From positions 1-53,779 of the IMG/VR virus record IMGVR_UViG_3300012933_000343: DNA of 53,779 nt, one strand, 5' to 3'. The notes below the pieces were generated by a model. It was not told where the DNA came from. It saw only the letters and a program-made list of their open reading frames with translations, and made no database searches. Each line of letters opens with the position of its first letter. The stretch's first letter is position 1. Positions 16,901-52,205 of the stretch are shown in pieces. Source of the stretch: a virus. The position numbers were made by a program, and so were the translations under genes.

Positions 16901-19426
16901 ATGGCAGATCAACTCTTGAACGACGGCGAAGACGAGAATCCATCTGACGACGCACAGCGCGGCGAGTCTGTCTCGCTCCCTGGCGACGACGAGATGGACA
17001 TCCACGACACTGATGACGGCGGCGCGATGGTTCGCATCGGCGACGACCGAGATGTGGTGGACAAGAAGGCCCACTTCGCCAACATTGTGGAAGAGGTCGA
17101 CCAAGGCATGCTGGACGACGCCGTGGTGGACTTGATCGACAAGATCGAGCGCGACAAAGACGCTCGCTCCAAGCGCGACAAGCTCTACGAAGAAGGCCTG
17201 CGCCGCACGGGCCTCGGCGACGACGCCCCCGGTGGAGCTCAGTTCTCGGGCGCGAACAAGGTTGTGCACCCCATGCTGGTCGAGGCCTGCGTTGACTTCA
17301 GCGCCCGCTTCATGAAAGAGGTGTTCCCGCCTTCTGGCCCCGTGAAGTCCAAAGTGCTGGGCACCGTGGATAAGGAAAAGCTGGACAGGTCGCGCCGCAA
17401 GACCGATTTCATGAACTGGCAGACCACCGAGCAAATGCCCGAGTTCCGTGGCGAGCTCGAGCAGCTCTCGACGCAGCTGCCCTTGGGTGGCGGCCAGTAC
17501 CTCAAGCTCATGTGGTCGCCCCAGTGGCGTCGCCCCACCTCCGAGTTCATCGCCATCGATGACATGTACCTGCCGTTTGCGGCCACTAACTTTTACTCTG
17601 CCGAGCGCAAAACGCACGTGCAGTACGTGACCAAGGCTGAGTTCAACCGCCGCGCCAAGGCTGGCATGTACATCGACGTGGACCTGGGCTCACCCGATCA
17701 GATCGATTTCAGCCGCGCGACCAAGGCCAACGACAAGATCGAGGGCCGCGAGGACACCAGCTACAACGAGGACGGGTTGCGCACGATCTTTGAGATTTAC
17801 ACGCATCTGGACTTTGGTGACGGCATGGAGCCGTACATCATCAGCATCGACAAGTCCACGCGCCAGGCGCTGAGCTTGTATCGCAACTGGGAGCCAGAGG
17901 ACAATCGCCGCCGCGAGCTGGAGTGGATTGTCGAGTTCCCGTTTGTGCCATGGCGCGGTGCGTACCCGATTGGCTTGACCCACATGATCGGCGGCCTGTC
18001 TGGCGCGGCCACCGGCGCTTTGCGTGCATTGCTGGACTCGGCCCACATCCAAAACATCCCCACGCTCTTGAAACTAAAGGGCGGCCCTGGCGGGCAGACG
18101 ATCAACCTGCAGCCGACCGAGGTGGTCGAGATCGAGGGCGGCGCGCTTGTTGACGACATTCGCAAGCTGGCCATGGCGCTGCCGTTCAACGGCCCGTCCC
18201 CCACGCTGTTCCAGCTGCTCGGCTTCTTGGTCGATGCTGGCAAGGGCGTCGTGCAGACCTCGTTCGAGAAGCTGGCCGATCAAAACGCCAACGCACCTGT
18301 CGGTACCACGCTGGCGCTGATCGAGCAGGGCATGGTGGTTTTCAGCTCCATTCACTCGCGCTTGCACAACTCGATGGAGCGGGTGTTCAAAATCCTGCAC
18401 CGCATCAACAGCGCATACTTGACCGAAGAGGACATCAAAGCGGATGCCGCCGGCCTTGACGTCAAGCCAGAGGACTTCGACGGTCCGATGGACGTGATTC
18501 CGGTCAGCGACCCCGCCATCTTCAGCGAGGCTCAGCGTTTTGCCCAGGTCACGGCCGTGCAGCAACGTTCAGCGATGTTGCCGCAGATGTACGACGCGCG
18601 CAAGGTTGAGGAGATGTTCCTGCGCAACCTGAAGCTCAACCCTGGCGACGTGCTCAACCCACAGCCGGGCGAGGACGATGTTGACCCGGTAAGTGAAAAC
18701 GTGGCCGCATCGCTTGGCCGCCCTGTTTTTGTTCTGCCAAAGCAGGACCACATCGCGCACATCCAAACGCACCTGGCGTTTTTGAAGTCGCCTTTGTTTG
18801 GCTCAAACCCGGCCGTGGTGAAAACCTACCTGTACCCGATGGCTCAGCACCTGCGCGATCACTTGCTGAACTTCTACCTCACGCAAGCTCATGAGGCCGT
18901 TCAGCGTGCCGAGTCCGAGGGTTTGATCACGGACGAGGCCAGCCAGCAGGTGAAGGTGATTGTTCGCGTGCAGCAGGTCATCGAGCAGCAAATGGCGCAG
19001 TTCGCCCAAGAGCTGGCCCAGATCGACCAGGCCGCCCAGCAGTTTGCGCCTCAGCCGCCGCAGATGCCGCAGGACAAGAGCCTGGAAGTTGCCCAGATCA
19101 ACGCTCAGGTGCGTCAGGCCGACAGCCAGCAGCGCGCTCAGTCCGATGCCGCACGCTTGCAAGTCGAACAGGCCAAGCTCTCGCAAAAGCAGCAGGCAGA
19201 CCAGCAAGCCTTGGCCGACAAGCAGCAAGCGCGCATGGAAGAAATGCAGGTCGCTCAGTTGCAAGAGGCCATGGAGAACGAGCGAACAGCCGCCGAGATC
19301 GACGCGCGTTTGCAAATGAACTCGGACGACAACGCCACGGCCATGCGCCTGGCGGCCGCAGAGATTGCCTCCGGCGAAAAGGTCGCCGTGAGCACAGGCA
19401 CGGGCATCAACCCGGGCACACGTTAA
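16901..19426 (+). CDS. Portal protein (841 aa), probable
   Basis: Large ORF downstream of TerL; acidic N-terminus; long Gln-rich coiled-coil C-terminus reminiscent of a P22-type portal barrel. Assigned from position and size, not from a diagnostic motif. Confidence 0.6.
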   Translation: MADQLLNDGEDENPSDDAQRGESVSLPGDDEMDIHDTDDGGAMVRIGDDRDVVDKKAHFANIVEEVDQGMLDDAVVDLIDKIERDKDARSKRDKLYEEGLRRTGLGDDAPGGAQFSGANKVVHPMLVEACVDFSARFMKEVFPPSGPVKSKVLGTVDKEKLDRSRRKTDFMNWQTTEQMPEFRGELEQLSTQLPLGGGQYLKLMWSPQWRRPTSEFIAIDDMYLPFAATNFYSAERKTHVQYVTKAEFNRRAKAGMYIDVDLGSPDQIDFSRATKANDKIEGREDTSYNEDGLRTIFEIYTHLDFGDGMEPYIISIDKSTRQALSLYRNWEPEDNRRRELEWIVEFPFVPWRGAYPIGLTHMIGGLSGAATGALRALLDSAHIQNIPTLLKLKGGPGGQTINLQPTEVVEIEGGALVDDIRKLAMALPFNGPSPTLFQLLGFLVDAGKGVVQTSFEKLADQNANAPVGTTLALIEQGMVVFSSIHSRLHNSMERVFKILHRINSAYLTEEDIKADAAGLDVKPEDFDGPMDVIPVSDPAIFSEAQRFAQVTAVQQRSAMLPQMYDARKVEEMFLRNLKLNPGDVLNPQPGEDDVDPVSENVAASLGRPVFVLPKQDHIAHIQTHLAFLKSPLFGSNPAVVKTYLYPMAQHLRDHLLNFYLTQAHEAVQRAESEGLITDEASQQVKVIVRVQQVIEQQMAQFAQELAQIDQAAQQFAPQPPQMPQDKSLEVAQINAQVRQADSQQRAQSDAARLQVEQAKLSQKQQADQQALADKQQARMEEMQVAQLQEAMENERTAAEIDARLQMNSDDNATAMRLAAAEIASGEKVAVSTGTGINPGTR

Positions 19427-19445
19427 TTTTTACAAGGAGCATCCC

Positions 19446-19583
19446 ATGAGCGACAAACCCACCCAAGGTACCGTGCCAATGAATGGCGCACTGGTCAAGC
19501 AACACCACCGCATGGCTGCCGGTCAGCCCGTGACCGGCCAGACAACGCCGGCCGCCCCATCGATGCCAAAGACCCCTGCCTGA
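19446..19583 (+). CDS. Small hypothetical protein (45 aa, below the track cutoff)
   Basis: Hand translation: MSDKPTQGTVPMNGALVKQHHRMAAGQPVTGQTTPAAPSMPKTPA. aaggag SD 7 nt upstream. The stop overlaps the next ATG (TGATG). Confidence 0.5.
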   Translation: MSDKPTQGTVPMNGALVKQHHRMAAGQPVTGQTTPAAPSMPKTPA

Positions 19584-19780
19584 TGGCCGTCGAGGACCGC
19601 CTGCTCGGAAAGCTCAAAGCTGACCAGCAGGCTTTTGCGTTTGAGGCTCTTAAACGCCCGGTCGAGCGTGACGCTTTCGAGTACGGATACAGAGTGGGCA
19701 TGGTTGCTGGATACGAAGCAGCCATCAAAGCCCTGCTTGATCTTCTGAACGACGAGCGCCACGGCGACCGAGACCTGTGA
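19583..19780 (+). CDS. Hypothetical protein (65 aa)
   Basis: Track ORF; start coupled to the upstream small ORF. Confidence 0.55.
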   Translation: MAVEDRLLGKLKADQQAFAFEALKRPVERDAFEYGYRVGMVAGYEAAIKALLDLLNDERHGDRDL

Positions 19781-19835
19781 TTTGCACGGGTCTGTGAGAT
19801 TTTTTTGATGGCAGCCGTTGTGGCTGCCGAAACAA

Positions 19836-19851
19836 CTGCTGAAAGGAGCAG
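19836..19851 (+). promoter_or_regulatory. SD-containing RNA hairpin (CTGCT-GAAAGG-AGCAG) 3 nt upstream of the ATG at 19855
   Basis: 5-bp stem with the SD AAGGAG spanning loop and 3' arm; one of three sites with the same loop and compensatory stem changes. Confidence 0.5.
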
Positions 19852-19854
19852 AGC

Positions 19855-20250
19855 ATGAGCGAAGCATTGATCGAGGCTTTTCCGGATGCCGACCCAGGCA
19901 TCACCCCATTTGGAAGCCGTGTCTTGGTGCAAATCCGAAGCCCCAAGAGCAAGACCGCCTCTGGCATCATTCTTGACAGCGGCTCCCGCGACACCGAAAA
20001 GTGGAACACGCAAGTGGCCAAGGTGATCAACGTCGGCGCGCTGGCCTTCAAGAACCGAAACACCATGGACTCCTGGCCAGAGGGCAGCTGGTGCAAGCCG
20101 GGCGATTACGTTCGTGTGGCCAAGTACGGCGGCGATCGCTGGGAGGTTCCCATGCCCAACGGCGAGTCCGCCCTTTTCGTGATCTTCAACGATCTGGACA
20201 TCATTGGCCAGGTGACCGGCGACCCGCTGGCCATTCGTGCGTTCATCTGA
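19855..20250 (+). CDS. GroES/Cpn10-like co-chaperonin (131 aa)
   Basis: ITPFGSRVLVQIRSPKSKTASGIILDSG...AKVINVG ... GDYVRVAKYGG ... FVIFNDLDIIGQV aligns by eye with E. coli GroES (IRPLHDRVIVKR.EVETKSAGGIVLTGS ... GDIVIFNDGYG ... ESDILAIV). Confidence 0.7.
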   Translation: MSEALIEAFPDADPGITPFGSRVLVQIRSPKSKTASGIILDSGSRDTEKWNTQVAKVINVGALAFKNRNTMDSWPEGSWCKPGDYVRVAKYGGDRWEVPMPNGESALFVIFNDLDIIGQVTGDPLAIRAFI

Positions 20251-20261
20251 GGAGCGGCACC

Positions 20262-20678
20262 ATGAACCACGAACAGATCGCCCGCGTTTGCCATGAAGTC
20301 AACCGCGCTTATTGCGAAGCCCTGGGCGACATGAGTCAGCCAGCCTGGAAAGATGCACCGCAGTGGCAGCGCGACAGCGCCATGATGGGCGTCAAACTCC
20401 ACAGCGACAACAACGTCGGCCCCGAGGCCAGCCACGAGAGTTGGATGGCGCAGAAGGTTTCCGAGGGTTGGGTGTACGGCCCCACCAAAGACCCCAAGGC
20501 CAAGACGCACCACTGCATCGTGCCATTTGACACGCTGCCCCGCGAGCAGCAAGCCAAGGACTTCATCTTCCGCGCTGTGGTGCACGCTTTGCGTCCAGTG
20601 GCACCTGCTGAAGACGACTTCCCTCTTGGCAAAGCCTGCGACCTCTCCGGCGAAGGCAATTGCGAAGCCTGCCAATAA
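20262..20678 (+). CDS. RyR (ryanodine-receptor repeat) domain protein (138 aa)
   Basis: Track ORF 20001..20678 trimmed to MNHEQIARV... SHESWMAQKVSEGWVYGPTKDPKAKTHHCIVPFDTLPREQQAKD matches the HE.W...GW.YG....K.HP.LVP...L....K..D RyR signature. C-terminal C-x7-C-x2-C. Confidence 0.8.
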   Translation: MNHEQIARVCHEVNRAYCEALGDMSQPAWKDAPQWQRDSAMMGVKLHSDNNVGPEASHESWMAQKVSEGWVYGPTKDPKAKTHHCIVPFDTLPREQQAKDFIFRAVVHALRPVAPAEDDFPLGKACDLSGEGNCEACQ

Positions 20679-20683
20679 CCCCC

Positions 20684-20699
20684 CAGCTGAAAGGAGCTG
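20684..20699 (+). promoter_or_regulatory. SD-containing RNA hairpin (CAGCT-GAAAGG-AGCTG) 3 nt upstream of the ATG at 20703
   Basis: Same architecture as 19836..19851, with covarying outer stem pairs. Confidence 0.5.
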
Positions 20700-20702
20700 A
20701 AA

Positions 20703-21677
20703 ATGCCAATTCTGAAAGAAGACGACGAGCGTCCCGACAATGAGGAAATTGTCATCGTTGAGGACAAGCCCCGTGCCGAAGATCAAGACGACGACCGGCG
20801 CTTAAGCGAGAACGAAGACGACGACGCCCCGGGCGACAGCAACGATCCCGAGCGCAAGGCCATCCAAGAGCGACGCCGACTGGAAAAGATCGAGCGCAAG
20901 AAGCGCCGCGACGAGGCCATCAGCCGCGACAAGCTGGAGCTGAGTTTCCTGCGCAAGCGCAACGACGAGCTCGAGCGCCGCATCGGCAGCGTTGAGCAGC
21001 GCACGCACCAAGCCGACCTGTCTCAGTTCGACGCCCAAATCAACGGCGCTCGTCAAGAGGCAGAGATGGCTGAGCGCGTGATTGCTAAGGCCGTGGCGGC
21101 TGGCAACGGTGAGGACGTGACGCAGGCGATGCGGTACCGCGACCAAGCCATGCAAAAGGCGCAACAGTTGGCGTTTGCAAAGCAGCAAGCAGCCCAGCAG
21201 CGCCAGACAAAGCCAGCGGACGGCATGGACGACATGACCATGCACTACGCCAAGGAGTTCATTCAGGACAACCCTTGGTATGACATGCAGGGCAAGGACG
21301 AGGACAGCGCAATCGTGCTGGCCATCGACGGTGCTTTGATGCGCGAGGGCTTCAAGCCCGACAGCGAAGAGTACTGGGACGAGCTGCGCGACCGCGCCGC
21401 CCGCCGTTTGCCCGAGCGTTTCAAGCAGACCGAGCGTCGCAACGACCACGGCGAAGAGCGCGCAGCCCGCGAAGAGCCGCGCCAGCAACGCCAGACCCGT
21501 GGTGGCCCAACGATCGGCTCTGGTCGTGAGCACGCTCCAACATCGACCCGCACTGAGGTTTATGTGAGCCCCGAGCGAAAGCAGGCATTGATTGATGCTG
21601 GCGTTTGGGACGATCCTGTTTTGCGTCAAAAATACGTGAAACGCTACGCCGAATATGACCGCAATAATCGGGCTTGA
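20703..21677 (+). CDS. Scaffolding protein, probable (324 aa)
   Basis: Highly charged, coiled-coil-prone sequence (acidic N-terminus, RRRLEKIERKKRRDE..., Q/A-rich middle) between portal and capsid genes. Confidence 0.55.
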   Translation: MPILKEDDERPDNEEIVIVEDKPRAEDQDDDRRLSENEDDDAPGDSNDPERKAIQERRRLEKIERKKRRDEAISRDKLELSFLRKRNDELERRIGSVEQRTHQADLSQFDAQINGARQEAEMAERVIAKAVAAGNGEDVTQAMRYRDQAMQKAQQLAFAKQQAAQQRQTKPADGMDDMTMHYAKEFIQDNPWYDMQGKDEDSAIVLAIDGALMREGFKPDSEEYWDELRDRAARRLPERFKQTERRNDHGEERAAREEPRQQRQTRGGPTIGSGREHAPTSTRTEVYVSPERKQALIDAGVWDDPVLRQKYVKRYAEYDRNNRA

Positions 21678-21706
21678 TTGTTTTTTAAAAATCGCAAGCC
21701 TATAAT
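21678..21706 (+). promoter_or_regulatory. Sigma70-like promoter candidate (TTGTTT-N17-TATAAT)
   Basis: A perfect -10 hexamer at 21701-21706 lies in the 58-nt gap before 21736. The -10 is followed by TTCCCC, as at two other late intergenic sites. Confidence 0.4.
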
Positions 21707-21714
21707 TTCCCCAA

Positions 21715-21730
21715 TCGCTGAAAGGAGCGA
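21715..21730 (+). promoter_or_regulatory. SD-containing RNA hairpin (TCGCT-GAAAGG-AGCGA) 5 nt upstream of the ATG at 21736
   Basis: Third copy of the GCTGAAAGGAGC hairpin, with compensatory outer pairs. Confidence 0.5.
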
Positions 21731-21735
21731 GAAAA

Positions 21736-22266
21736 ATGTCCGATGAACGCTTAAAGAAATCTGCTGGTGACAACCGTGAGAGCCGTGCGATGGTAGATCG
21801 CGCCGCAACTGAATCACGTGCCTTGTCCGATGACGAGCGGGTTGAAATGTTCCGACAGCAGTTTCACCAGTCCTCTCTTCCGGACTTGCCGAAACTTGAT
21901 GGCTGGCACACGTGCTGGCTGACCACAACCAACCCAAGAGACTCCATCCACATGAGAATGCGGCTGGGTTATGAGCCACTGAAGCCTGAGGATGTTCCAG
22001 GCTGGGAATATGTCACCCTGAAGACGGGCGACTGGACTGGCTTTATTGGGGTGAACGAGATGCTCGCTTTCAAACTCCCGATCAGCTTGTACGAAAAGTA
22101 CATGCAGGAAGCTCACCACGACGCGCCGATGCGCGAAGAGGAAAAGCTCACCGACACCGCTGATTTCATGGAGCAACAAGCTCGCGCTTCTGGTTCACGC
22201 ATGGATGCGGGTGATGGCATGACGGAAATTGGACAACGCAGGGACGCTCGTTTTGAGCTGACCTGA
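21736..22266 (+). CDS. Head-module hypothetical protein (176 aa)
   Basis: Track ORF with a strong SD; located between scaffold-like and decoration-like genes; no recognisable protease motif. Confidence 0.6.
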   Translation: MSDERLKKSAGDNRESRAMVDRAATESRALSDDERVEMFRQQFHQSSLPDLPKLDGWHTCWLTTTNPRDSIHMRMRLGYEPLKPEDVPGWEYVTLKTGDWTGFIGVNEMLAFKLPISLYEKYMQEAHHDAPMREEEKLTDTADFMEQQARASGSRMDAGDGMTEIGQRRDARFELT

Positions 22267-22306
22267 TTTTCTGGTTCATTCATCAATCCCTCAAGGAGAA
22301 CGCTAA

Positions 22307-22900
22307 ATGTCCTCGACAAGCGCACCTTTTGGCTTTCGCGCCTCTTACCACAACAGTGGTCAGATGCGTCCCAAAGCCTACACCGTAGCGAGCACCTACG
22401 CCGCCAACATTTTCTCGGGCGACCCCGTGAAGTTGACCGACGCTGGTGTTATTCAACTGGGCACCTCTGACGGCACCCGTTCCGGCACTACAGACGGCAT
22501 TACCCTCCTGGGTATCTTCGCTGGCTGCCAGTACCTGGACGCGACCGGCAAGCCCACCATCAGCCCCTTCTGGCCAAGCGGCACCACAGGCACTGAAATC
22601 ACTGCCTGGGTGTTTGATGATCCAGAAACGCTGTTCGATGTGCAGTACAACAACCCCTCCGCTGGTACCACCGTGCAAACGGCTGTCGGCGAAGAGTGCG
22701 ACTGGACTGTTGCCTCGCCTGGTGGCTCAACCCAAACGGGCCTGAGCAACACCTACCTCACCGCCATCCAGTCGACTTCTGGCCAGTTCCAGATCACCGG
22801 CTTCGGATACAACATCAACGACTCGCTGACTGACGCTTATGTCACGGCCACTGTTCGCATCAACGAACACGCCTACAAAGCAGCGGTCAACAGCATCTAA
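22307..22900 (+). CDS. Head decoration-like / capsid accessory protein (197 aa)
   Basis: Track ORF, aaggag SD, Gly/Thr-rich beta-type sequence immediately upstream of the major capsid gene (the lambda gpD position). Confidence 0.45.
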   Translation: MSSTSAPFGFRASYHNSGQMRPKAYTVASTYAANIFSGDPVKLTDAGVIQLGTSDGTRSGTTDGITLLGIFAGCQYLDATGKPTISPFWPSGTTGTEITAWVFDDPETLFDVQYNNPSAGTTVQTAVGEECDWTVASPGGSTQTGLSNTYLTAIQSTSGQFQITGFGYNINDSLTDAYVTATVRINEHAYKAAVNSI

Positions 22901-22913
22901 GGAGGGCTGAAAC

Positions 22914-23828
22914 ATGGCAACCCCAATGCGCAGTACGGACTTCCGTTCCGTAGTCGAGCCCATCCTGAACGAAGTGTTCGATGGTGTTTATGAGCAACGT
23001 GCCGACGAGTGGAAACAAGTGTTCCGCGAGCAAAAAGGCATCCCACGCAACTACCATGAAGAGCCCGTCTTGTACGGCTTCGGCGCAGCTCCTGAGCTGC
23101 CCGACGGCATGGCAGTGACGTACCAGTCCGGCGGCGTGCTGTTCTTGCAGCGCTACCTGTACAAGGTGTACGGCTTGGCCTTTGCTTTGACCAAAGTTTT
23201 GGTTGAAGACGGCGACCACATCCGTATCGGCCAGACTTACGCCAAGCACTTGGCTCAGTCGCTGATCGAGACCAAAGAGACCCTGGCTGCCAACATCTTG
23301 AACCGTGCATTCAACGGCGCGTACACAGGTGGCGACGGCGTGGCTCTGGTTTCCACGGCTCACCCCATCGTCAACGGCACGTTCAGCAACCAGCTGTCCA
23401 CCGCCGCTGCCCTGTCGCAGACGTCCCTCGAGCAGATGCTGATTCAGATTCGCAATGCTGTGGACAACAACGGCAAGCGCATCCGCCTGACACCCAAGAA
23501 GATCGTCACCGGTCCTTCCAACGTGTTCTCGGCTGAAGTGCTGCTGAAGTCCGTGCTGCGCACTGGCACCGCTGACAACGACATCAACCCTGTGAAATCG
23601 ATGGGCTTGCTGGCCGAAGGCCAGGCCAACTTGTCGCGTATCACTTCCACCACAGCCTGGTGGGTTCAGACCGACGCTCCCGAAGGTCTGAAACTGTTGA
23701 TGCGTCGCGGCCTGGAGAAATCCATGGAAGGCGACTTCGAAACCGACAGCATGCGTTACAAGGCCACAGAGCGTTACGTTCTGGGCTGGACTGACCCACG
23801 CGGCGTGTTCGGCACATCCGGCATCTGA
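22914..23828 (+). CDS. Major capsid protein (304 aa)
   Basis: Track ORF, aaggag SD, followed by the strongest terminator in the window. Size and position are typical of HK97-fold capsid proteins. C-terminal ...TTAWWVQTD...Y pattern. Confidence 0.75.
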   Translation: MATPMRSTDFRSVVEPILNEVFDGVYEQRADEWKQVFREQKGIPRNYHEEPVLYGFGAAPELPDGMAVTYQSGGVLFLQRYLYKVYGLAFALTKVLVEDGDHIRIGQTYAKHLAQSLIETKETLAANILNRAFNGAYTGGDGVALVSTAHPIVNGTFSNQLSTAAALSQTSLEQMLIQIRNAVDNNGKRIRLTPKKIVTGPSNVFSAEVLLKSVLRTGTADNDINPVKSMGLLAEGQANLSRITSTTAWWVQTDAPEGLKLLMRRGLEKSMEGDFETDSMRYKATERYVLGWTDPRGVFGTSGI

Positions 23829-23862
23829 CGCGGACTTAACGGGCTTCGGTCCAATCCAAAAA

Positions 23863-23887
23863 GGGGGCTTCGGCCCCCTTTTCTTTT
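23863..23887 (+). terminator. Rho-independent terminator after the major capsid gene
   Basis: GGGGGC-ttcg-GCCCCC stem-loop followed by TTTTCTTTT. Confidence 0.85.
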
Positions 23888-24517
23888 GTTGGCACACCCT
23901 TTAAAATTGGGCCAAAAGGGTTGTTTATGCCATACAAAATCGACGTAGTTGGAATATACAAAATCGTTAACAAGGCCACGGGGCATTGCTACGTTGGCCA
24001 ATCTCAATATGTCAAAAAAAGGCTTAAAGAGCATTTCAGGCTGCTTCGTTTAAACAAGCACCCAAACGGGCACTTGCAAAATTCTTACAACAAATACGGG
24101 CTTGAGAATTTTTACGGCTCAATTGAAATTGAGTGCGATAGCACCGTTGATTTAGACCAGCTTGAGGAGATGTTTATTTCTGGGGCTGCTTGGTTTGATC
24201 AACCCACTGTTTACAACATTGCTGATTTTGCTAAAGCTCCAATGCGTGGAAAAACGCATAGTGCCGAGGTAAGAATGCGAATCAGCGCAGGAAGAAACGC
24301 AACAACATTTGACTACAGAAGTCCGGAATATCGGGAAACTTTGTCAAGAGCGCAAATGGCACGCTTTCATTCAGACCAAAAATTTATGGCAAAAGTAAAG
24401 TTTATATTGGACAATTCCGACCTGTCATATGCTGAGCGTGGAAGACGTCTTGGTGCCGACACAAGCTCAGTGCGAAGGATTGCGCTGAGGTATCAACATC
24501 TCAAAGGAGTACCGTAA
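23888..24517 (+). mobile_element. Free-standing homing-endonuclease gene cassette (GIY-YIG) inserted between the capsid terminator and the next structural gene
   Basis: The segment is markedly AT-richer than its surroundings (hand counts of 35-48% GC per 60 nt against about 60% around it). It starts right after the terminator and ends with TAATG overlapping the next gene. Confidence 0.6.
23927..24517 (+). CDS. GIY-YIG family homing endonuclease (196 aa)
   Basis: VGIYKIVNKATGHCYVGQS...RLKEH...N..LQNSYNKYG..NF (GIY-YIG core), followed by NUMOD-like HSAEVRMRISAGR. Confidence 0.88.
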   Translation: MPYKIDVVGIYKIVNKATGHCYVGQSQYVKKRLKEHFRLLRLNKHPNGHLQNSYNKYGLENFYGSIEIECDSTVDLDQLEEMFISGAAWFDQPTVYNIADFAKAPMRGKTHSAEVRMRISAGRNATTFDYRSPEYRETLSRAQMARFHSDQKFMAKVKFILDNSDLSYAERGRRLGADTSSVRRIALRYQHLKGVP

Positions 24518-24894: not shown

Positions 24895-24916
24895 CCGGGG
24901 CCTTGACTGGCCCCGG
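24895..24916 (+). terminator. Stable GC hairpin after 24517..24888 (possible terminator or mRNA stabiliser; no U-tract)
   Basis: CCGGGGCC-ttgact-GGCCCCGG, a perfect 8-bp stem 7 nt after the stop. Confidence 0.3.
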
Positions 24917-24942
24917 CTCCATCATTCAAACAGGAGCGCAAC

Positions 24943-25356
24943 ATGGCTGACGCAGTAACTTCTCAAACAATCCTTGACGGTGAGCGCCTGTTCATCGGCA
25001 AGTTCACCAACATCAGCGACGGCACCGGTGAAACGGGGGCCCTCAAGATCGACGTGTCCACACTGGCCCCTAGTGCATCGGGCAACGCCTGCAACGGCAT
25101 CAAGATCAACAAGATTTGGGCTCAGACTTTTGGCATGTCTGTGGATATCCTATGGGATGCCACGACCGATCTGCTGTGCGAGACCATTCCCGAGAATCAG
25201 TTTTACTTGATGGACTACAGCTCGTTTGGTGGTTTTCCAAACAACGCTGGCGCAGGCAAGACTGGCGACGTGCTGTTTTCAACTGTGGGGGCGGCATCGG
25301 GCGACCGGTACACCATCACCATTGAAGGCATCAAAACCTACAATGTCCCAGCTTAA
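24943..25356 (+). CDS. Virion structural protein, hypothetical (137 aa)
   Basis: Track ORF; caggag SD. Confidence 0.55.
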   Translation: MADAVTSQTILDGERLFIGKFTNISDGTGETGALKIDVSTLAPSASGNACNGIKINKIWAQTFGMSVDILWDATTDLLCETIPENQFYLMDYSSFGGFPNNAGAGKTGDVLFSTVGAASGDRYTITIEGIKTYNVPA

Positions 25357-26195: not shown

Positions 26196-26215
26196 GCGTC
26201 CTCTTGATCTACAAT
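26186..26215 (+). promoter_or_regulatory. Promoter candidate (TTGCCG-N18-TACAAT) with a TTCCC downstream motif
   Basis: Lies in the 117-nt gap before 26280. The -10-like TACAATTCCCAA resembles TATAATTTCCCC (21701) and TATAATTCCCGC (33009). Confidence 0.3.
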
Positions 26216-26279
26216 TCCCAAAACCCTCAAAAGGGCACGCTGGAACGGCGGCCATCTGACGACCCAACACGGAGTTAGC

Positions 26280-27272
26280 ATGGCCTTTTCCGGCAGCATA
26301 AGCAACACGACATTCAATGCACTGAAGGTGGTCGATACCGCCTTTCGTCGTTGCCGCCTGCCAGCGCAAGCGATCACAGCGGAAATGCAAAGCTACGCGC
26401 TTGAAGCCCTGTATTTGCTGCTGAGCGACCTGGCCAACACCAAGACCCCGAGCTGGTGCATTGAGCGCCAGATTTACCCGTTCTACGAGGGGCAGCCCAT
26501 CGTTACGCTGACGAACGGCACCGTTGAGGTGTTGAACGCAAACCTGCGCACGCTGCAGGAGCTGACCGGCACCACCGTGGCGCTGTCCCAGAGCTACACG
26601 GTGGACTTCACGGACCAGGATGGCGGCGTGGGTACCGTCAACACCGTGGGCGTGAAATGGCTTGGTGCTGCCGTGGACTTGACATTCCAGACCTCGCGCG
26701 ACGGAATCATCTGGGCCACCGTTGGCACGCAAACAACCGAGGCATCTTCTGGCGAGTGGACATGGACGGACGTTGTGCCTGCGCTGGCCAAAGAGTTCTT
26801 CCGCATCACCAGCACCGCGCCGATGCTTCTCGAGGAGGTTTACCTGGGCACGCTGCCGCAGGAAATCCCCATGGGCCCTTTGAACCGCGACACCTATGTG
26901 GCGCAAAGCAACAAGGTGTTCTTGGGCCGTCCGCTGACTTACTGGTTCCAGCGCGACCTGCCTCAGCCCGTGATGAACTTGTGGCCAAGCCCGAATCTGG
27001 CGGCCGAGCACCAGCAGCTGATTGTGTGGCGTCACCGCCACATCATGGACACGCAAAACCTGCGCCAAGACGTCGAGGTGCCTCAGCGTTGGCTTGAGGC
27101 GATCGTGGCGGGCTTGGCCTCGCGCGTCGCCGCCGAGACTCCGTCGGTGGACCCATCGCTGGTCGGCATGCTGGACCAGAAGTGGTACCTTGCGCGTCAG
27201 GCTGCGTGGGACGGCGACAACGACGGCTCGCCAACGTACATTAACCCCGGCATCGGCTGCTACACGAAGTAA
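26280..27272 (+). CDS. Virion structural protein (330 aa), possibly head-tail adaptor or tail component
   Basis: Track ORF; position after the head genes and before the fibres; no diagnostic motif. Confidence 0.45.
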   Translation: MAFSGSISNTTFNALKVVDTAFRRCRLPAQAITAEMQSYALEALYLLLSDLANTKTPSWCIERQIYPFYEGQPIVTLTNGTVEVLNANLRTLQELTGTTVALSQSYTVDFTDQDGGVGTVNTVGVKWLGAAVDLTFQTSRDGIIWATVGTQTTEASSGEWTWTDVVPALAKEFFRITSTAPMLLEEVYLGTLPQEIPMGPLNRDTYVAQSNKVFLGRPLTYWFQRDLPQPVMNLWPSPNLAAEHQQLIVWRHRHIMDTQNLRQDVEVPQRWLEAIVAGLASRVAAETPSVDPSLVGMLDQKWYLARQAAWDGDNDGSPTYINPGIGCYTK

Positions 27273-32985: not shown

Positions 32986-33014
32986 TTCCCAAAATGTTCG
33001 CCGAGCCCTATAAT
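32986..33014 (+). promoter_or_regulatory. Promoter candidate with a perfect TATAAT (33009-33014) and a weak -35
   Basis: Lies in the 90-nt gap after the endolysin; -10 context TATAATTCCCGC is shared with the sites at 21701 and 26210. Confidence 0.3.
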
Positions 33015-33068
33015 TCCCGCAACAACGCGCCAGCTGGACCAGCGGCTTCATAACCATTTGGAGTCCCC

Positions 33069-52168: not shown

Positions 52169-52205
52169 AAGTTGCTCCTTTCAGCTTCCGTTCACGTTTA
52201 AAAAA

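What the first reader, a model, noticed from the sequence alone, without database searches (positions are those of the whole stretch)
19836..21730. Three SD-embedding hairpins with compensatory base changes in front of head-module genes
Immediately upstream of the ATGs at 19855 (GroES-like), 20703 (scaffold-like) and 21736 the sequence is CTGCT-GAAAGG-AGCAG, CAGCT-GAAAGG-AGCTG and TCGCT-GAAAGG-AGCGA. The hexaloop and the inner GCT/AGC pairs are identical. The two outer pairs differ between sites but remain complementary (C-G/T-A, C-G/A-T, T-A/C-G). Chance complementarity of both outer pairs at all three sites is roughly (1/16)^3. The SD AAGGAG spans the loop and 3' arm, and the stem ends 3-5 nt before the start codon. 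This is a conserved RNA element. It could tune or time translation, serve as a processing or stability site, or bind a phage protein. No other SD in the genome has this form.
Basis: seen in the sequence. Interest (0 to 1): 0.62.

Follow-up and report, generated by a model that had tools for sequence, protein, structure and literature searches.

The report
Ribosome-site display hairpins before phage head genes
Three small RNA hairpins that hold the ribosome-binding sequence of phage head-assembly genes in an open loop are real and kept by compensatory mutations across well over a hundred related uncultured phages; they most likely secure strong, context-independent translation and protect the message, which is a familiar kind of control in a new form.

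Summary
The three 16-nt hairpins lie at 19836-19851, 20684-20699 and 21715-21730, 3, 3 and 5 nt before the ATGs. Each folds at -6.7 to -7.3 kcal/mol.

One claim is wrong. The 12-nt core GCTGAAAGGAGC occurs a fourth time (52174-52185, minus strand) before an early gene, without the outer pairs.

Comparison of 230 related loci strongly supports a selected RNA structure. A hairpin of the same geometry (GG ends the loop, AG starts the 3' arm) sits at the orthologous ribosome-binding sites in 65%, 49% and 19% of unique sequences. At five control genes it sits in 0-5%. At least eight different stems keep pairing.

The "conserved hexaloop" is part of an 8-nt Shine-Dalgarno, GAAAGGAG, the longest in the genome. 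Folding predicts six of its eight bases ≥97% unpaired, the most accessible of 65 genes. The hairpin therefore displays the SD more than it hides it.

- Site 3 begins 7-9 nt after a conserved TATAAT, so it probably forms the 5' end of a late transcript.
- Site 2 in most relatives contains the stop codon of the GroES-like gene.

Best reading: a cis-acting SD-display and leader-protecting hairpin, function untested. It matches no Rfam family. Earlier scan notes describe broadly similar RBS-adjacent hairpins on other DNA, but not this motif.

The parts
19836..19851 (+). Site 1 hairpin CUGCU-GAAAGG-AGCAG. The SD octamer GAAAGGAG lies at 19841-19848. The stem ends 3 nt before the ATG (19855) of the GroES-like gene.
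   Evidence: Sequence. The fold is -6.9 kcal/mol and 94% of the ensemble. Orthologues carry CTGCT/AGCAG, TTGCT/AGCAA and ATGCT/AGCAT.
20684..20699 (+). Site 2 hairpin CAGCU-GAAAGG-AGCUG. The SD lies at 20689-20696. The stem ends 3 nt before the ATG (20703) of the 324-aa acidic scaffold-like gene and starts 5 nt after the RyR-gene stop codon.
   Evidence: Sequence. The fold is -7.3 kcal/mol and no shuffle out of 200 folds as well. Most relatives carry CAUC-UGA-AAGG-AGAUG, which includes the GroES stop codon.
21715..21730 (+). Site 3 hairpin UCGCU-GAAAGG-AGCGA. The SD lies at 21720-21727. The stem ends 5 nt before the ATG (21736) of a conserved 176-aa protein of unknown fold.
   Evidence: Sequence. 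The fold is -6.7 kcal/mol. 79 of 121 unique orthologous RBSs keep the hairpin. The C-G to U-A double change shows no single-change intermediates.
21678..21706 (+). Sigma70-type promoter-like element TTGTTT-17 nt-TATAAT, with the -10 box at 21701-21706. It ends 8 nt before the site 3 stem. The predicted transcript start is A21713 or A21714.
   Evidence: TATAAT is kept in relatives whose flanks have diverged. The gap from the -10 box to the stem is 7-9 nt in 58 of 59 unique sequences. The strict scan tool did not call it. The transcript start is not mapped.
52174..52185 (-). Fourth copy of the 12-nt core GCUGAAAGGAGC. It lies 5 nt before the ATG (52168) of a 99-aa ORF that heads the leftward early genes. 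It has no outer pairs.
   Evidence: Its orthologues L160-L163 keep the core and also lack outer pairing.
19810..19828 (+). GC-rich hairpin GGCAGCC-GUUGU-GGCUGCC, 7 nt upstream of site 1 and preceded by a U-run. It is a companion structure in the site 1 leader.
   Evidence: It is kept with compensatory changes (GGCGGCC/GGCCGCC, GGTGGCC/GGCCACC) and is duplicated in L005 and L015.
23859..23882 (+). Strong intrinsic terminator after the major capsid gene. It closes the transcription unit that starts at site 3.
   Evidence: 10-bp stem, 6 G-C pairs, followed by a T-run.

Best explanation
The three elements are genuine RNA hairpins in the mRNA, kept by selection. They act in cis as structured ribosome-binding sites that display the Shine-Dalgarno sequence.

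Shown:
- Each site carries the genome's longest SD, GAAAGGAG.
- A 5-bp stem of about -6 to -7 kcal/mol pairs only the last two SD bases (AG) with a CU placed upstream.
- As a result, the first six SD bases sit in the loop.

Inferred mechanism:
- The local hairpin folds fast and wins over alternative pairings in this 60% G+C RNA. The loop is therefore an always-available toehold for the 16S anti-SD.
- Pairing of the anti-SD (about -12 kcal/mol for 8 bp) then invades the top of the stem. The remaining 3 bp fall apart and free the spacer and the AUG.
- The result is strong, context-independent initiation at ribosome-binding sites that lie in untranslated spacers.

Site-specific extras (inferred):
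- At site 3 the hairpin starts 0-2 nt from the predicted 5' end of a late sigma70 transcript. There it should also shield the message from 5'-end-dependent decay.
- At the ancestral form of site 2 the 5' arm is the last codons plus the stop codon of the GroES-like gene. A terminating ribosome would open the hairpin, which adds translational coupling.
For: Structure and selection:
- The hairpins are the dominant local fold.
- Strict-geometry hairpins occur at orthologous RBSs in 79/121 (176-aa gene), 41/83 (scaffold-like) and 23/119 (GroES-like) unique sequences. At control genes the counts are 2/145, 1/144, 0/72, 0/46 and 3/64.
- Of 283 such hairpins found anywhere in 159 loci, 159 precede these three genes.
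- Covariation exceeds shuffled and slid controls. In the hexaloop register, 79/201 windows are fully paired, against 36 +/- 3.6 (maximum 50) in within-site shuffles.
- The C-G to U-A switch at site 3 has no one-sided intermediates and up to 7 origins on the protein tree.

Display rather than masking:
- All five GAAAGGAG octamers in the genome are RBSs and are its longest SDs.
- SD bases 1-6 are at least 97% unpaired in an 88-nt context.
- The best 4-nt SD accessibility is 0.99-1.00, the top of 65 genes (median 0.51). AUG accessibility is 0.67-0.70 against a median of 0.52.
- In relatives, hairpin-bearing RBSs have longer SDs (7.2-7.5 against 4.7-5.8 nt) and higher accessibility (0.92-0.95 against 0.58-0.75) than hairpin-less orthologues.

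Tuned stability:
- Hairpin energy is -5.8 +/- 0.6, -6.0 +/- 1.1 and -5.6 +/- 1.3 kcal/mol at the three sites. A/U-richer stems are longer, 6-8 bp.

Context:
- At the GroES-like and 176-aa genes the hairpins occur mainly where the RBS lies more than 25 nt from the upstream ORF.
- The -10 box lies 7-9 nt before the site 3 stem in 58/59 sequences.
- In most relatives the GroES stop codon lies inside the site 2 hairpin. The hairpin stays with the GroES 3' end when other genes are inserted.
Against:
- Accessibility values are thermodynamic predictions, and the host is unknown. The 8-bp SD:anti-SD pairing assumes a ...CCUCCUUUCU 16S tail.
- Many relatives lack the hairpin at one or more sites. Scaffold genes after a RyR insertion, as in L004 and L008, are an example. 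It is therefore dispensable.
- Site 4 keeps the 12-nt core without a stem, also in its orthologues. This hints at sequence-level constraints that the display model does not explain.
- G.U and A.C mismatches are equally frequent (7 against 7), so wobble pairs give no extra strand evidence.
- Three different site contexts (5' end, internal spacer, stop-codon overlap) may mean more than one function.
Confidence: 0.5

Rival explanations
1. Primarily an mRNA-stability element. The hairpin caps the 5' end of a primary or RNase-processed transcript and, together with a bound ribosome, blocks RppH/RNase E-type 5'-end-dependent decay. The effects on translation are secondary.
For: - Site 3 begins 7-9 nt after a conserved TATAAT in 58/59 relatives, so only 0-2 unpaired nt are expected at the 5' end.
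- The second late -10-like box (26210) is also followed at once by a small hairpin.
- Site 1 follows a U-rich stretch and a conserved GC hairpin.
- 5' stem-loops and SD-type stabilisers are established. The ompA, papA, aprE and STAB-SD references are listed in PMC3997798.
Against: - No -10 box lies upstream of sites 1 and 2 in any relative.
- Site 2 is internal to an operon.
- At site 1 the upstream GC hairpin, not the SD hairpin, would cap a processed end.
- This reading does not explain why the loop/stem boundary always splits GG|AG.
Confidence: 0.2
2. A negative gate. The hairpin lowers free initiation so that the gene is translated mainly when a ribosome arriving from the upstream gene opens it (translational coupling). 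Alternatively, it acts only under certain conditions, such as temperature.
For: - In most relatives the 5' arm of site 2 is the last two codons plus the UGA of the GroES-like gene (TTC ATC TGA), and the 3' arm has evolved to match it.
- The hairpin strengthens to about -10 to -11 kcal/mol at 15 C.
- The leader of gene 26280 in the same phage does sequester its SD and AUG.
Against: - Sites 1 and 3 lie 56 and 38 nt beyond the upstream stop codons, out of reach of a terminating ribosome.
- Six of eight SD bases and the AUG are predicted to be open.
- The hairpins accompany the strongest SDs, not weak ones.
Confidence: 0.12
3. An operator for a trans-acting RNA-binding protein, either phage-encoded or a host CsrA/RsmA-like factor that binds GGA in hairpin loops. 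The protein would co-regulate the GroES-like, scaffold-like and 176-aa genes.
For: - The same loop and the inner three pairs occur at three head genes.
- The 12-nt core is also kept without a stem at site 4.
- GGA lies at a hairpin loop overlapping the SD, as in CsrA targets.
- P22 scaffolding protein is known to autoregulate post-transcriptionally (Wyckoff & Casjens 1985, cited in PMC5529062).
Against: - Loop length varies from 5 to 10 nt and stems vary freely in orthologues.
- The A of GGA is paired, and the flanks do not fit the CsrA consensus.
- The phage has no CsrA gene.
- The conserved small neighbouring proteins show no RNA-binding family.
- Loop conservation is explained by the SD itself.
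Confidence: 0.1
4. Mostly a recombination linker. The shared CTGAAAGGAGC junction sequence is spread by gene-cassette exchange between gene boundaries, as with PeSL cassettes, and the RNA hairpin itself has little function.
For: - Insertions (the RyR gene and several unrelated small genes) sit exactly at the GroES/scaffold hairpin.
- The RyR insertion has CTGA-GGAGC at its left junction and CTGAAAGGAGC at its right junction.
- Four sites in one genome carry an identical 12-mer.
- PeSL precedent: PMC2839356.
Against: - Recombination does not explain stems that differ yet stay complementary. It also does not explain length compensation that keeps the energy near -6 kcal/mol.
Confidence: 0.05

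Closest known systems
5'-terminal stem-loop mRNA stabilisers (E. coli ompA and papA leaders; B. subtilis aprE leader, where a 5' stem-loop plus ribosome binding stabilise the mRNA; STAB-SD). References are listed in PMC3997798.
   Same: Site 3 is a short hairpin predicted to start 0-2 nt from a primary 5' end and is combined with a strong ribosome-binding site. The stability of about -6 to -7 kcal/mol is comparable.
   Different: Here the SD is part of the hairpin itself. Sites 1 and 2 are not at predicted transcript starts. No half-life data exist.
RBS-masking hairpins that couple translation of adjacent cistrons (MS2 coat to replicase/lysis; E. coli rpmI-rplT, atpH-atpA). This comparison rests on my own knowledge.
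   Same: In most relatives the 5' arm of site 2 is the end of the upstream coding sequence, including its stop codon.
   Different: Only 2 of 8 SD bases are paired, and the AUG is free. Sites 1 and 3 are too far from the upstream stop codon.
T4 gene e / soc / I-TevI leaders, where the SD is sequestered in early transcripts and a late promoter lies inside the 5' arm (PMC3014915).
   Same: A phage late gene, a promoter next to an RBS hairpin, and comparable stem sizes.
   Different: The -10 box ends 7-9 nt before the stem, so the late transcript should contain the whole hairpin. The SD is displayed, not sequestered.
PeSL (promoter-early stem-loop) cassettes of T4-type phages (PMC2839356).
   Same: Promoter, stem-loop and SD are packed between genes. 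The motif is repeated at gene junctions where accessory genes come and go.
   Different: PeSL stem-loops are G/C-rich terminators that usually overlap the promoter. These hairpins are 5 bp long, have no T-run, include the SD, and lie in the late head module.
CsrA/RsmA target hairpins (GGA in the loop, overlapping the SD).
   Same: A short hairpin with GG in the loop at an SD.
   Different: The A of GGA is base-paired. The flanks do not match the ACA-GGA-UG type consensus. The phage has no CsrA gene and the host is unknown.

Membership tests
Any described RNA family (Rfam 15) | A match to a curated covariance model | tested here: not met
   cmscan of 19300-24000 on both strands at E up to 10 gave only three chance-level hits, none at the three sites.
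5'-terminal stem-loop mRNA stabilisers (ompA/papA/aprE type) | The stem-loop begins within a few nucleotides of the transcript's 5' end | tested here: inconclusive
   At site 3 a conserved TTGnnn-17-TATAAT ends 7-9 nt before the stem in 58/59 relatives, which predicts 0-2 unpaired 5' nt. The transcript start is not mapped. Sites 1 and 2 have no -10 box upstream.
5'-terminal stem-loop mRNA stabilisers (ompA/papA/aprE type) | The stem-loop lengthens mRNA half-life in an RNase E/RppH-dependent way | not testable with these tools
   This needs rifampicin-chase measurements.
Translational-coupling RBS hairpins | The downstream RBS pairs with the end of the upstream coding sequence | tested here: inconclusive
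   Met at the ancestral site 2 form, CAUC-UGA-AAGG-AGAUG. Not met in the window's site 2, where the stem starts 5 nt after the stop codon. Not met at sites 1 and 3, which lie 56 and 38 nt after the stop codon.
Translational-coupling RBS hairpins | The SD and/or start codon is inaccessible without upstream translation | tested here: not met
   Predicted unpaired probability is at least 0.97 for six of eight SD bases and 0.67-0.70 for the AUG. This is a thermodynamic prediction only.
T4 gene e/soc-type promoter-in-hairpin switch | The late promoter lies within the 5' arm, so the late transcript lacks it | tested here: not met
   The -10 box (21701-21706) ends 8 nt upstream of the stem (21715). 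The same spacing holds in relatives.
CsrA/RsmA binding sites | An unpaired GGA in the loop of a short hairpin with ACA-GGA-UG-like flanks | tested here: not met
   GG lies in the loop, but the A forms the closing U-A pair. The flanks are CUGAAAGG-AGC.
CsrA/RsmA binding sites | A CsrA-family protein is available | tested here: inconclusive
   No PF02599 match in the complete phage genome. The host is unknown: the MAG bins that hold relatives are taxonomically scattered, many of them Betaproteobacteria.
Phage translational operators (T4 gp43/RegA, MS2 coat) | An invariant loop sequence and geometry recognised by a specific protein | tested here: inconclusive
   The loop is GAAAGG in most sequences, but loops of 5-10 nt occur at orthologous sites. 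Conservation is explained by the SD. No candidate protein was found.
PeSL cassettes | A strong sigma70 promoter plus a G/C-rich stem-loop that terminates transcription, repeated around accessory ORFs | tested here: not met
   Only site 3 has a promoter. The stems are 5 bp without a T-run, and the terminator scan did not call them on the + strand. Compared against PMC2839356.
RNA thermometers (ROSE, fourU) | The SD is paired in a heat-labile stem | tested here: not met
   Only 2 of 8 SD bases are paired.

The most novel reading that the evidence does not exclude
The hairpins at the GroES-like, scaffold-like and 176-aa genes, the stem-less core at the first early gene, and perhaps the larger SD/AUG-sequestering leader of gene 26280 could together form a post-transcriptional regulon. 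This regulon would be read by one trans-acting factor, such as a phage protein (for example unassembled scaffold, as in P22 autoregulation) or a host GGA-binding protein. It would match production of head-assembly proteins to assembly demand.
Probability: 0.1. Interest if true: 0.65.

Novelty: new variant of a known kind. Interest (0 to 1): 0.4.

Why it matters
- **Covariation in a very small element.** This is a clean, covariation-supported example of a 16-nt mRNA element, conserved across a large and abundant group of uncultured freshwater phages. These phages are distantly related to Caulobacter phages RW and KcrB.
- **Display rather than occlusion.** A hairpin around an SD need not be a repressor. 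Here it is predicted to make the SD the most accessible in the genome. This is relevant to gene-expression prediction in G+C-rich phages and to the design of insulated ribosome-binding sites.
- **Annotation.** The element marks the start of a late transcription unit (promoter, 5' hairpin, three genes including the capsid gene, terminator). It also marks a hotspot where accessory genes are inserted.
- **Limits.** No new principle of gene control is shown, and the function is untested.

Tried and rejected
- **Rfam:** no family matches at the sites.
- **CsrA in the phage:** none found.
- **Neighbouring proteins:** Pfam and PHROG searches of the small conserved neighbours (45 aa, 65 aa), the 176-aa, 197-aa and scaffold-like proteins found no RNA-binding or other informative family.
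- **Structure of the 176-aa protein:** the AlphaFold model has pLDDT 74, and no PDB fold matches at E below 1. Its role stays unknown.
- **Strand test:** G.U and A.C mismatches are 7 against 7, which is uninformative.
- **Promoter scan:** the strict sigma70 scan tool found no promoter in 19300-24000. The site 3 promoter was recognised only from conservation in relatives.
- **Promoter at site 1:** none was found, so a 5'-terminal role there was rejected.
- **Host identification:** the MAG records holding related capsid genes are taxonomically scattered, so the anti-SD sequence is assumed, not shown.
- **Caulobacter phage RW:** it has a related but looser hairpin only at the 176-aa homologue. 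Its GroES and scaffold leaders were not informative.
- **DNA-level palindrome / protein-binding site:** rejected because bases change while complementarity, gene orientation and SD-to-AUG spacing are kept.
- **N4-type hairpin promoter:** rejected because the phage has no RNA polymerase gene among the annotated large ORFs and the SD must be in the transcript.
Full report
**What the window is**

The window is a complete 53,779-bp phage genome with direct terminal repeats. It has no RNA polymerase gene among its annotated large ORFs, so it must use the host enzyme. Its genes include:
- helicase, primase-polymerase and ParB-methyltransferase;
- small and large terminase, portal and an HK97-type major capsid protein;
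- RecET-like early genes on the minus strand.

The region of the finding reads as follows:
- portal (16916-19426);
- two small ORFs;
- [site 1] GroES-like Cpn10 protein (19855-20250);
- RyR-domain protein (20262-20678);
- [site 2] 324-aa acidic protein, scaffold-like by position and composition only (20703-21677);
- [site 3] 176-aa protein (21736-22266);
- 197-aa protein;
- major capsid protein (22914-23828);
- a strong terminator (23859-23882).

**Observation**

- The three sequences are exactly as reported.
- Each folds into the 5-bp/hexaloop hairpin as the dominant local structure, at -6.9, -7.3 and -6.7 kcal/mol. The same hairpin appears in folds of 80-110-nt contexts.
The exact 12-mer GCTGAAAGGAGC occurs a fourth time, on the minus strand at 52174-52185. 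It lies 5 nt before the ATG of a 99-aa ORF at the head of the leftward genes.
- At that fourth site the outer positions are A.A and A.A. The same is true of its orthologues.
- A genome-wide scan looked for hairpins in which GGAG is split so that GG ends the loop and AG starts the 3' arm. It found 18, no more than in shuffled sequence (22 +/- 5).
- Only the three reported ones have no G.U pair, the same loop, and a called gene start 3-5 nt downstream.

**Relatives**

- Searches with the scaffold-like and capsid proteins returned 159 IMG/VR loci and 61 loci from MAG contigs. Capsid identity ranges from 43 to 99%.
- The distant cultured relatives are Caulobacter phages RW, KcrB, RLK and GB2A.
- I located orthologous gene starts by tblastn, independently of any structure, and read their upstream regions.

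**Conservation and covariation**

I used a strict definition: GG are the last two loop bases, A is the first base of the 3' arm, the stem has at least 5 bp, and at most one pair is G.U. Counts are of unique sequences.

| Gene | RBSs with the hairpin |
|---|---|
| 176-aa gene | 79/121 |
| Scaffold-like gene | 41/83 |
| GroES-like gene | 23/119 |
| 197-aa gene (control) | 2/145 |
| Capsid gene (control) | 1/144 |
| 45-aa gene (control) | 0/72 |
| 123-aa gene (control) | 0/46 |
| 137-aa gene (control) | 3/64 |

- Conversely, 283 such hairpins were found anywhere on either strand of the first 159 loci. Of these, 196 precede an ORF and 159 precede one of these three genes.
- The stems differ but stay complementary:
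  - site 3: TCGCT/AGCGA, TTGCT/AGCAA and TCGCT/AGTGA;
  - site 2: CATCT/AGATG, TATCT/AGATA, CTGCT/AGCAG, CAGCT/AGCTG and GGCT/AGCC;
  - site 1: CTGCT/AGCAG, TTGCT/AGCAA and ATGCT/AGCAT.
- On MAFFT alignments of the orthologous leaders, covariation score and paired fraction exceed all 500 shuffles and all slid registers.
- At site 3 the fourth pair is C-G in 66 rows and U-A in 7, with no one-sided change.
- On a FastTree of the 176-aa protein this double change needs up to 7 events. Recombination could lower that number.
- All three sites were pooled in the hexaloop register. The three variable pairs are all Watson-Crick in 79 of 201 unique windows. Within-site shuffles give 36 +/- 3.6 (maximum 50 of 2000), and shifted registers give 2-16.
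- The element matches no Rfam family.
- I regard the hairpin as a selected RNA structure with about 90% confidence.

**What the conserved loop is**

- GAAAGGAG occurs five times in the genome, always 5-8 nt before a start codon. These five are the longest matches to an anti-SD of the ...CCUCCUUUCU type among 71 called genes.
- The invariant loop is therefore the 5' three-quarters of an extended SD.
- In relatives the loop varies from 5 to 10 nt: GAAGG, GAAAAGG, GATAAGG, GACTAAAGG and others. The terminal GG and the CU...AG closing pairs stay fixed.
- The host, and hence the anti-SD tail, is not established. The tail is assumed from general knowledge of Alpha- and Betaproteobacteria.

**Display, not masking**

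- In an 88-nt context, SD bases 1-6 are 97-100% unpaired and bases 7-8 are at most 3% unpaired.
- Across 65 genes of this genome the median best-4-nt SD accessibility is 0.51. The three sites score 0.99-1.00, the highest of all. Their start codons score 0.67-0.70 against a median of 0.52.
- In relatives, hairpin-bearing RBSs carry longer SDs (7.2-7.5 against 4.7-5.8 nt). They also have higher predicted accessibility (0.92-0.95 against 0.58-0.75) than hairpin-less orthologues.
- The 8-bp SD:anti-SD duplex is about -12 kcal/mol, against about -7 for the hairpin. A 30S subunit that nucleates on the loop can therefore displace the stem.
- Hairpin stability is narrowly distributed, at -5.8 +/- 0.6, -6.0 +/- 1.1 and -5.6 +/- 1.3 kcal/mol. 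The A/U-richer CATCT-type stems are longer (6-8 bp). This looks like selection on stability rather than on sequence.
- From memory of de Smit and van Duin's work on the MS2 coat gene, about -6 kcal/mol is near the limit that an RBS hairpin can have without reducing initiation. I did not verify this here.

**Site contexts**

*Site 3*
- TATAAT (21701-21706) is invariant in relatives whose flanks have diverged. It is preceded by TTGnnn at 17 nt.
- It ends 7-9 nt before the stem in 58 of 59 unique hairpin-bearing sequences.
- An earlier scan note (e1-3418731) had pointed to this -10-like box.
- The predicted start at A21713/A21714 leaves 1-2 unpaired 5' nucleotides. This is the arrangement of known 5'-terminal stabilising stem-loops (references in PMC3997798).
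- The unit ends at the terminator after the capsid gene.

*Site 2*
- In most relatives the RyR gene is absent and the hairpin is CAUC-UGA-AAGG-AGAUG. Its 5' arm is the last codons and stop codon of the GroES-like gene.
- Where other small genes are inserted after GroES, the hairpin stays with the GroES 3' end and serves the inserted gene. The scaffold-like gene then has a plain SD.
- In the window the RyR gene interrupts that ancestral hairpin (TTCATCTGA|GGAGC). A GCT-type hairpin precedes the scaffold-like gene instead.
- Other RyR-containing relatives have no hairpin there.

*Site 1*
- The hairpin occurs only in relatives with an untranslated spacer. That spacer also holds a U-run and a covarying GC hairpin (19810-19828).
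- Relatives in which the GroES gene overlaps the upstream ORF lack the hairpin.
- No -10 box precedes sites 1 or 2.

**Interpretation**

- The feature common to all sites is an RBS in naked or just-vacated RNA. It carries a very long SD whose first six bases are locked into a loop.
- I therefore favour a cis-acting display or insulation hairpin (0.5).
- A 5'-protective role at site 3 and a coupling role at ancestral site 2 are add-ons.
- The rivals and their weights are:
  - pure stabiliser (0.2);
  - negative gate or coupling (0.12);
  - protein operator, including CsrA-like binding (0.1);
  - recombination linker without RNA function (0.05).
- The operator reading is weakened by variable loop length. 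It is also weakened by the paired A of GGA and the absence of a CsrA gene or any RNA-binding family among neighbouring genes.
- The operator reading is kept alive by the stem-less but sequence-identical site 4.
- The linker reading draws on PeSL cassettes (PMC2839356) and on insertions sitting exactly at the hairpin. It cannot explain compensatory changes.

**Comparison with earlier scan notes**

- Other agents reported RBS-adjacent hairpins on an Acinetobacter plasmid family (e1-1952793).
- They also reported promoter-linked 5' hairpins in a jumbo phage (e1-4036052).
- These are the same broad class but not this motif. I did not test those claims.

**Limits**

- The host is unknown.
- All accessibility and energy figures are model predictions.
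- Tree-based event counts may be inflated by recombination.
- The 176-aa protein remains unidentified.

Noticed in passing
window 26236-26285 (leader of gene 26280-27272): A larger conserved leader structure with two hairpins. The first is a small hairpin GCUGG...CGGC. The second is a long hairpin GGCCAUCUGAC...GG|AGUUAGCAUGGCC that pairs the 3' half of the SD and the AUG. Its energy is -18 to -20 kcal/mol, with z = -2.8. The AUG is paired in 47 of 73 unique orthologous leaders, with compensatory changes. It has the same GG|AG loop/stem geometry as the three sites, but here the RBS is truly sequestered.
   Followed up: partly
window 26210-26235 and 33009-33045: Two further late -10-like boxes, TACAAT at 26210 and TATAAT at 33009, are each followed within about 8 nt by a small hairpin. 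One is CCCU-CAAA-AGGG at 26224-26235. The other is GCCAGCU-GGACC-AGCGGC near 33028. This suggests that 5'-terminal hairpins are a general feature of this phage's late transcripts.
   Followed up: partly
window 20239-20265 and 20679-20702: The RyR-domain gene looks like a cassette inserted into the ancestral GroES-stop/SD hairpin. The left junction is TTCATCTGA|GGAGC and the right junction is CAGCTGAAAGGAGCTG. In relatives, several unrelated small genes occupy the same slot.
   Followed up: partly
window 24916-24937 (before gene 24943-25356): GCUCC-12 nt-GGAGC pairs the whole SD of the 137-aa gene. 19 of 64 orthologous leaders show a 4-5-bp hairpin at the SD.
   Followed up: no
window 19781-19828: The intergenic leader before site 1 has three parts: a hairpin AGACC...GGUCU overlapping the upstream stop codon, a U7 run, and a covarying GC hairpin. 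The GC hairpin is duplicated in L005 and L015. It could be a weak terminator or a processing site.
   Followed up: partly
window 21736-22266: The 176-aa protein is highly conserved, with 18 invariant residues in 48 orthologues. It has an alpha/beta core and a long helix (pLDDT 74) but no Pfam, PHROG or PDB-fold match. It is an unassigned head-module protein.
   Followed up: yes
window 23921-24517: A GIY-YIG homing-endonuclease-like ORF lies directly after the capsid terminator (Pfam PF01541, E = 5e-6).
   Followed up: no
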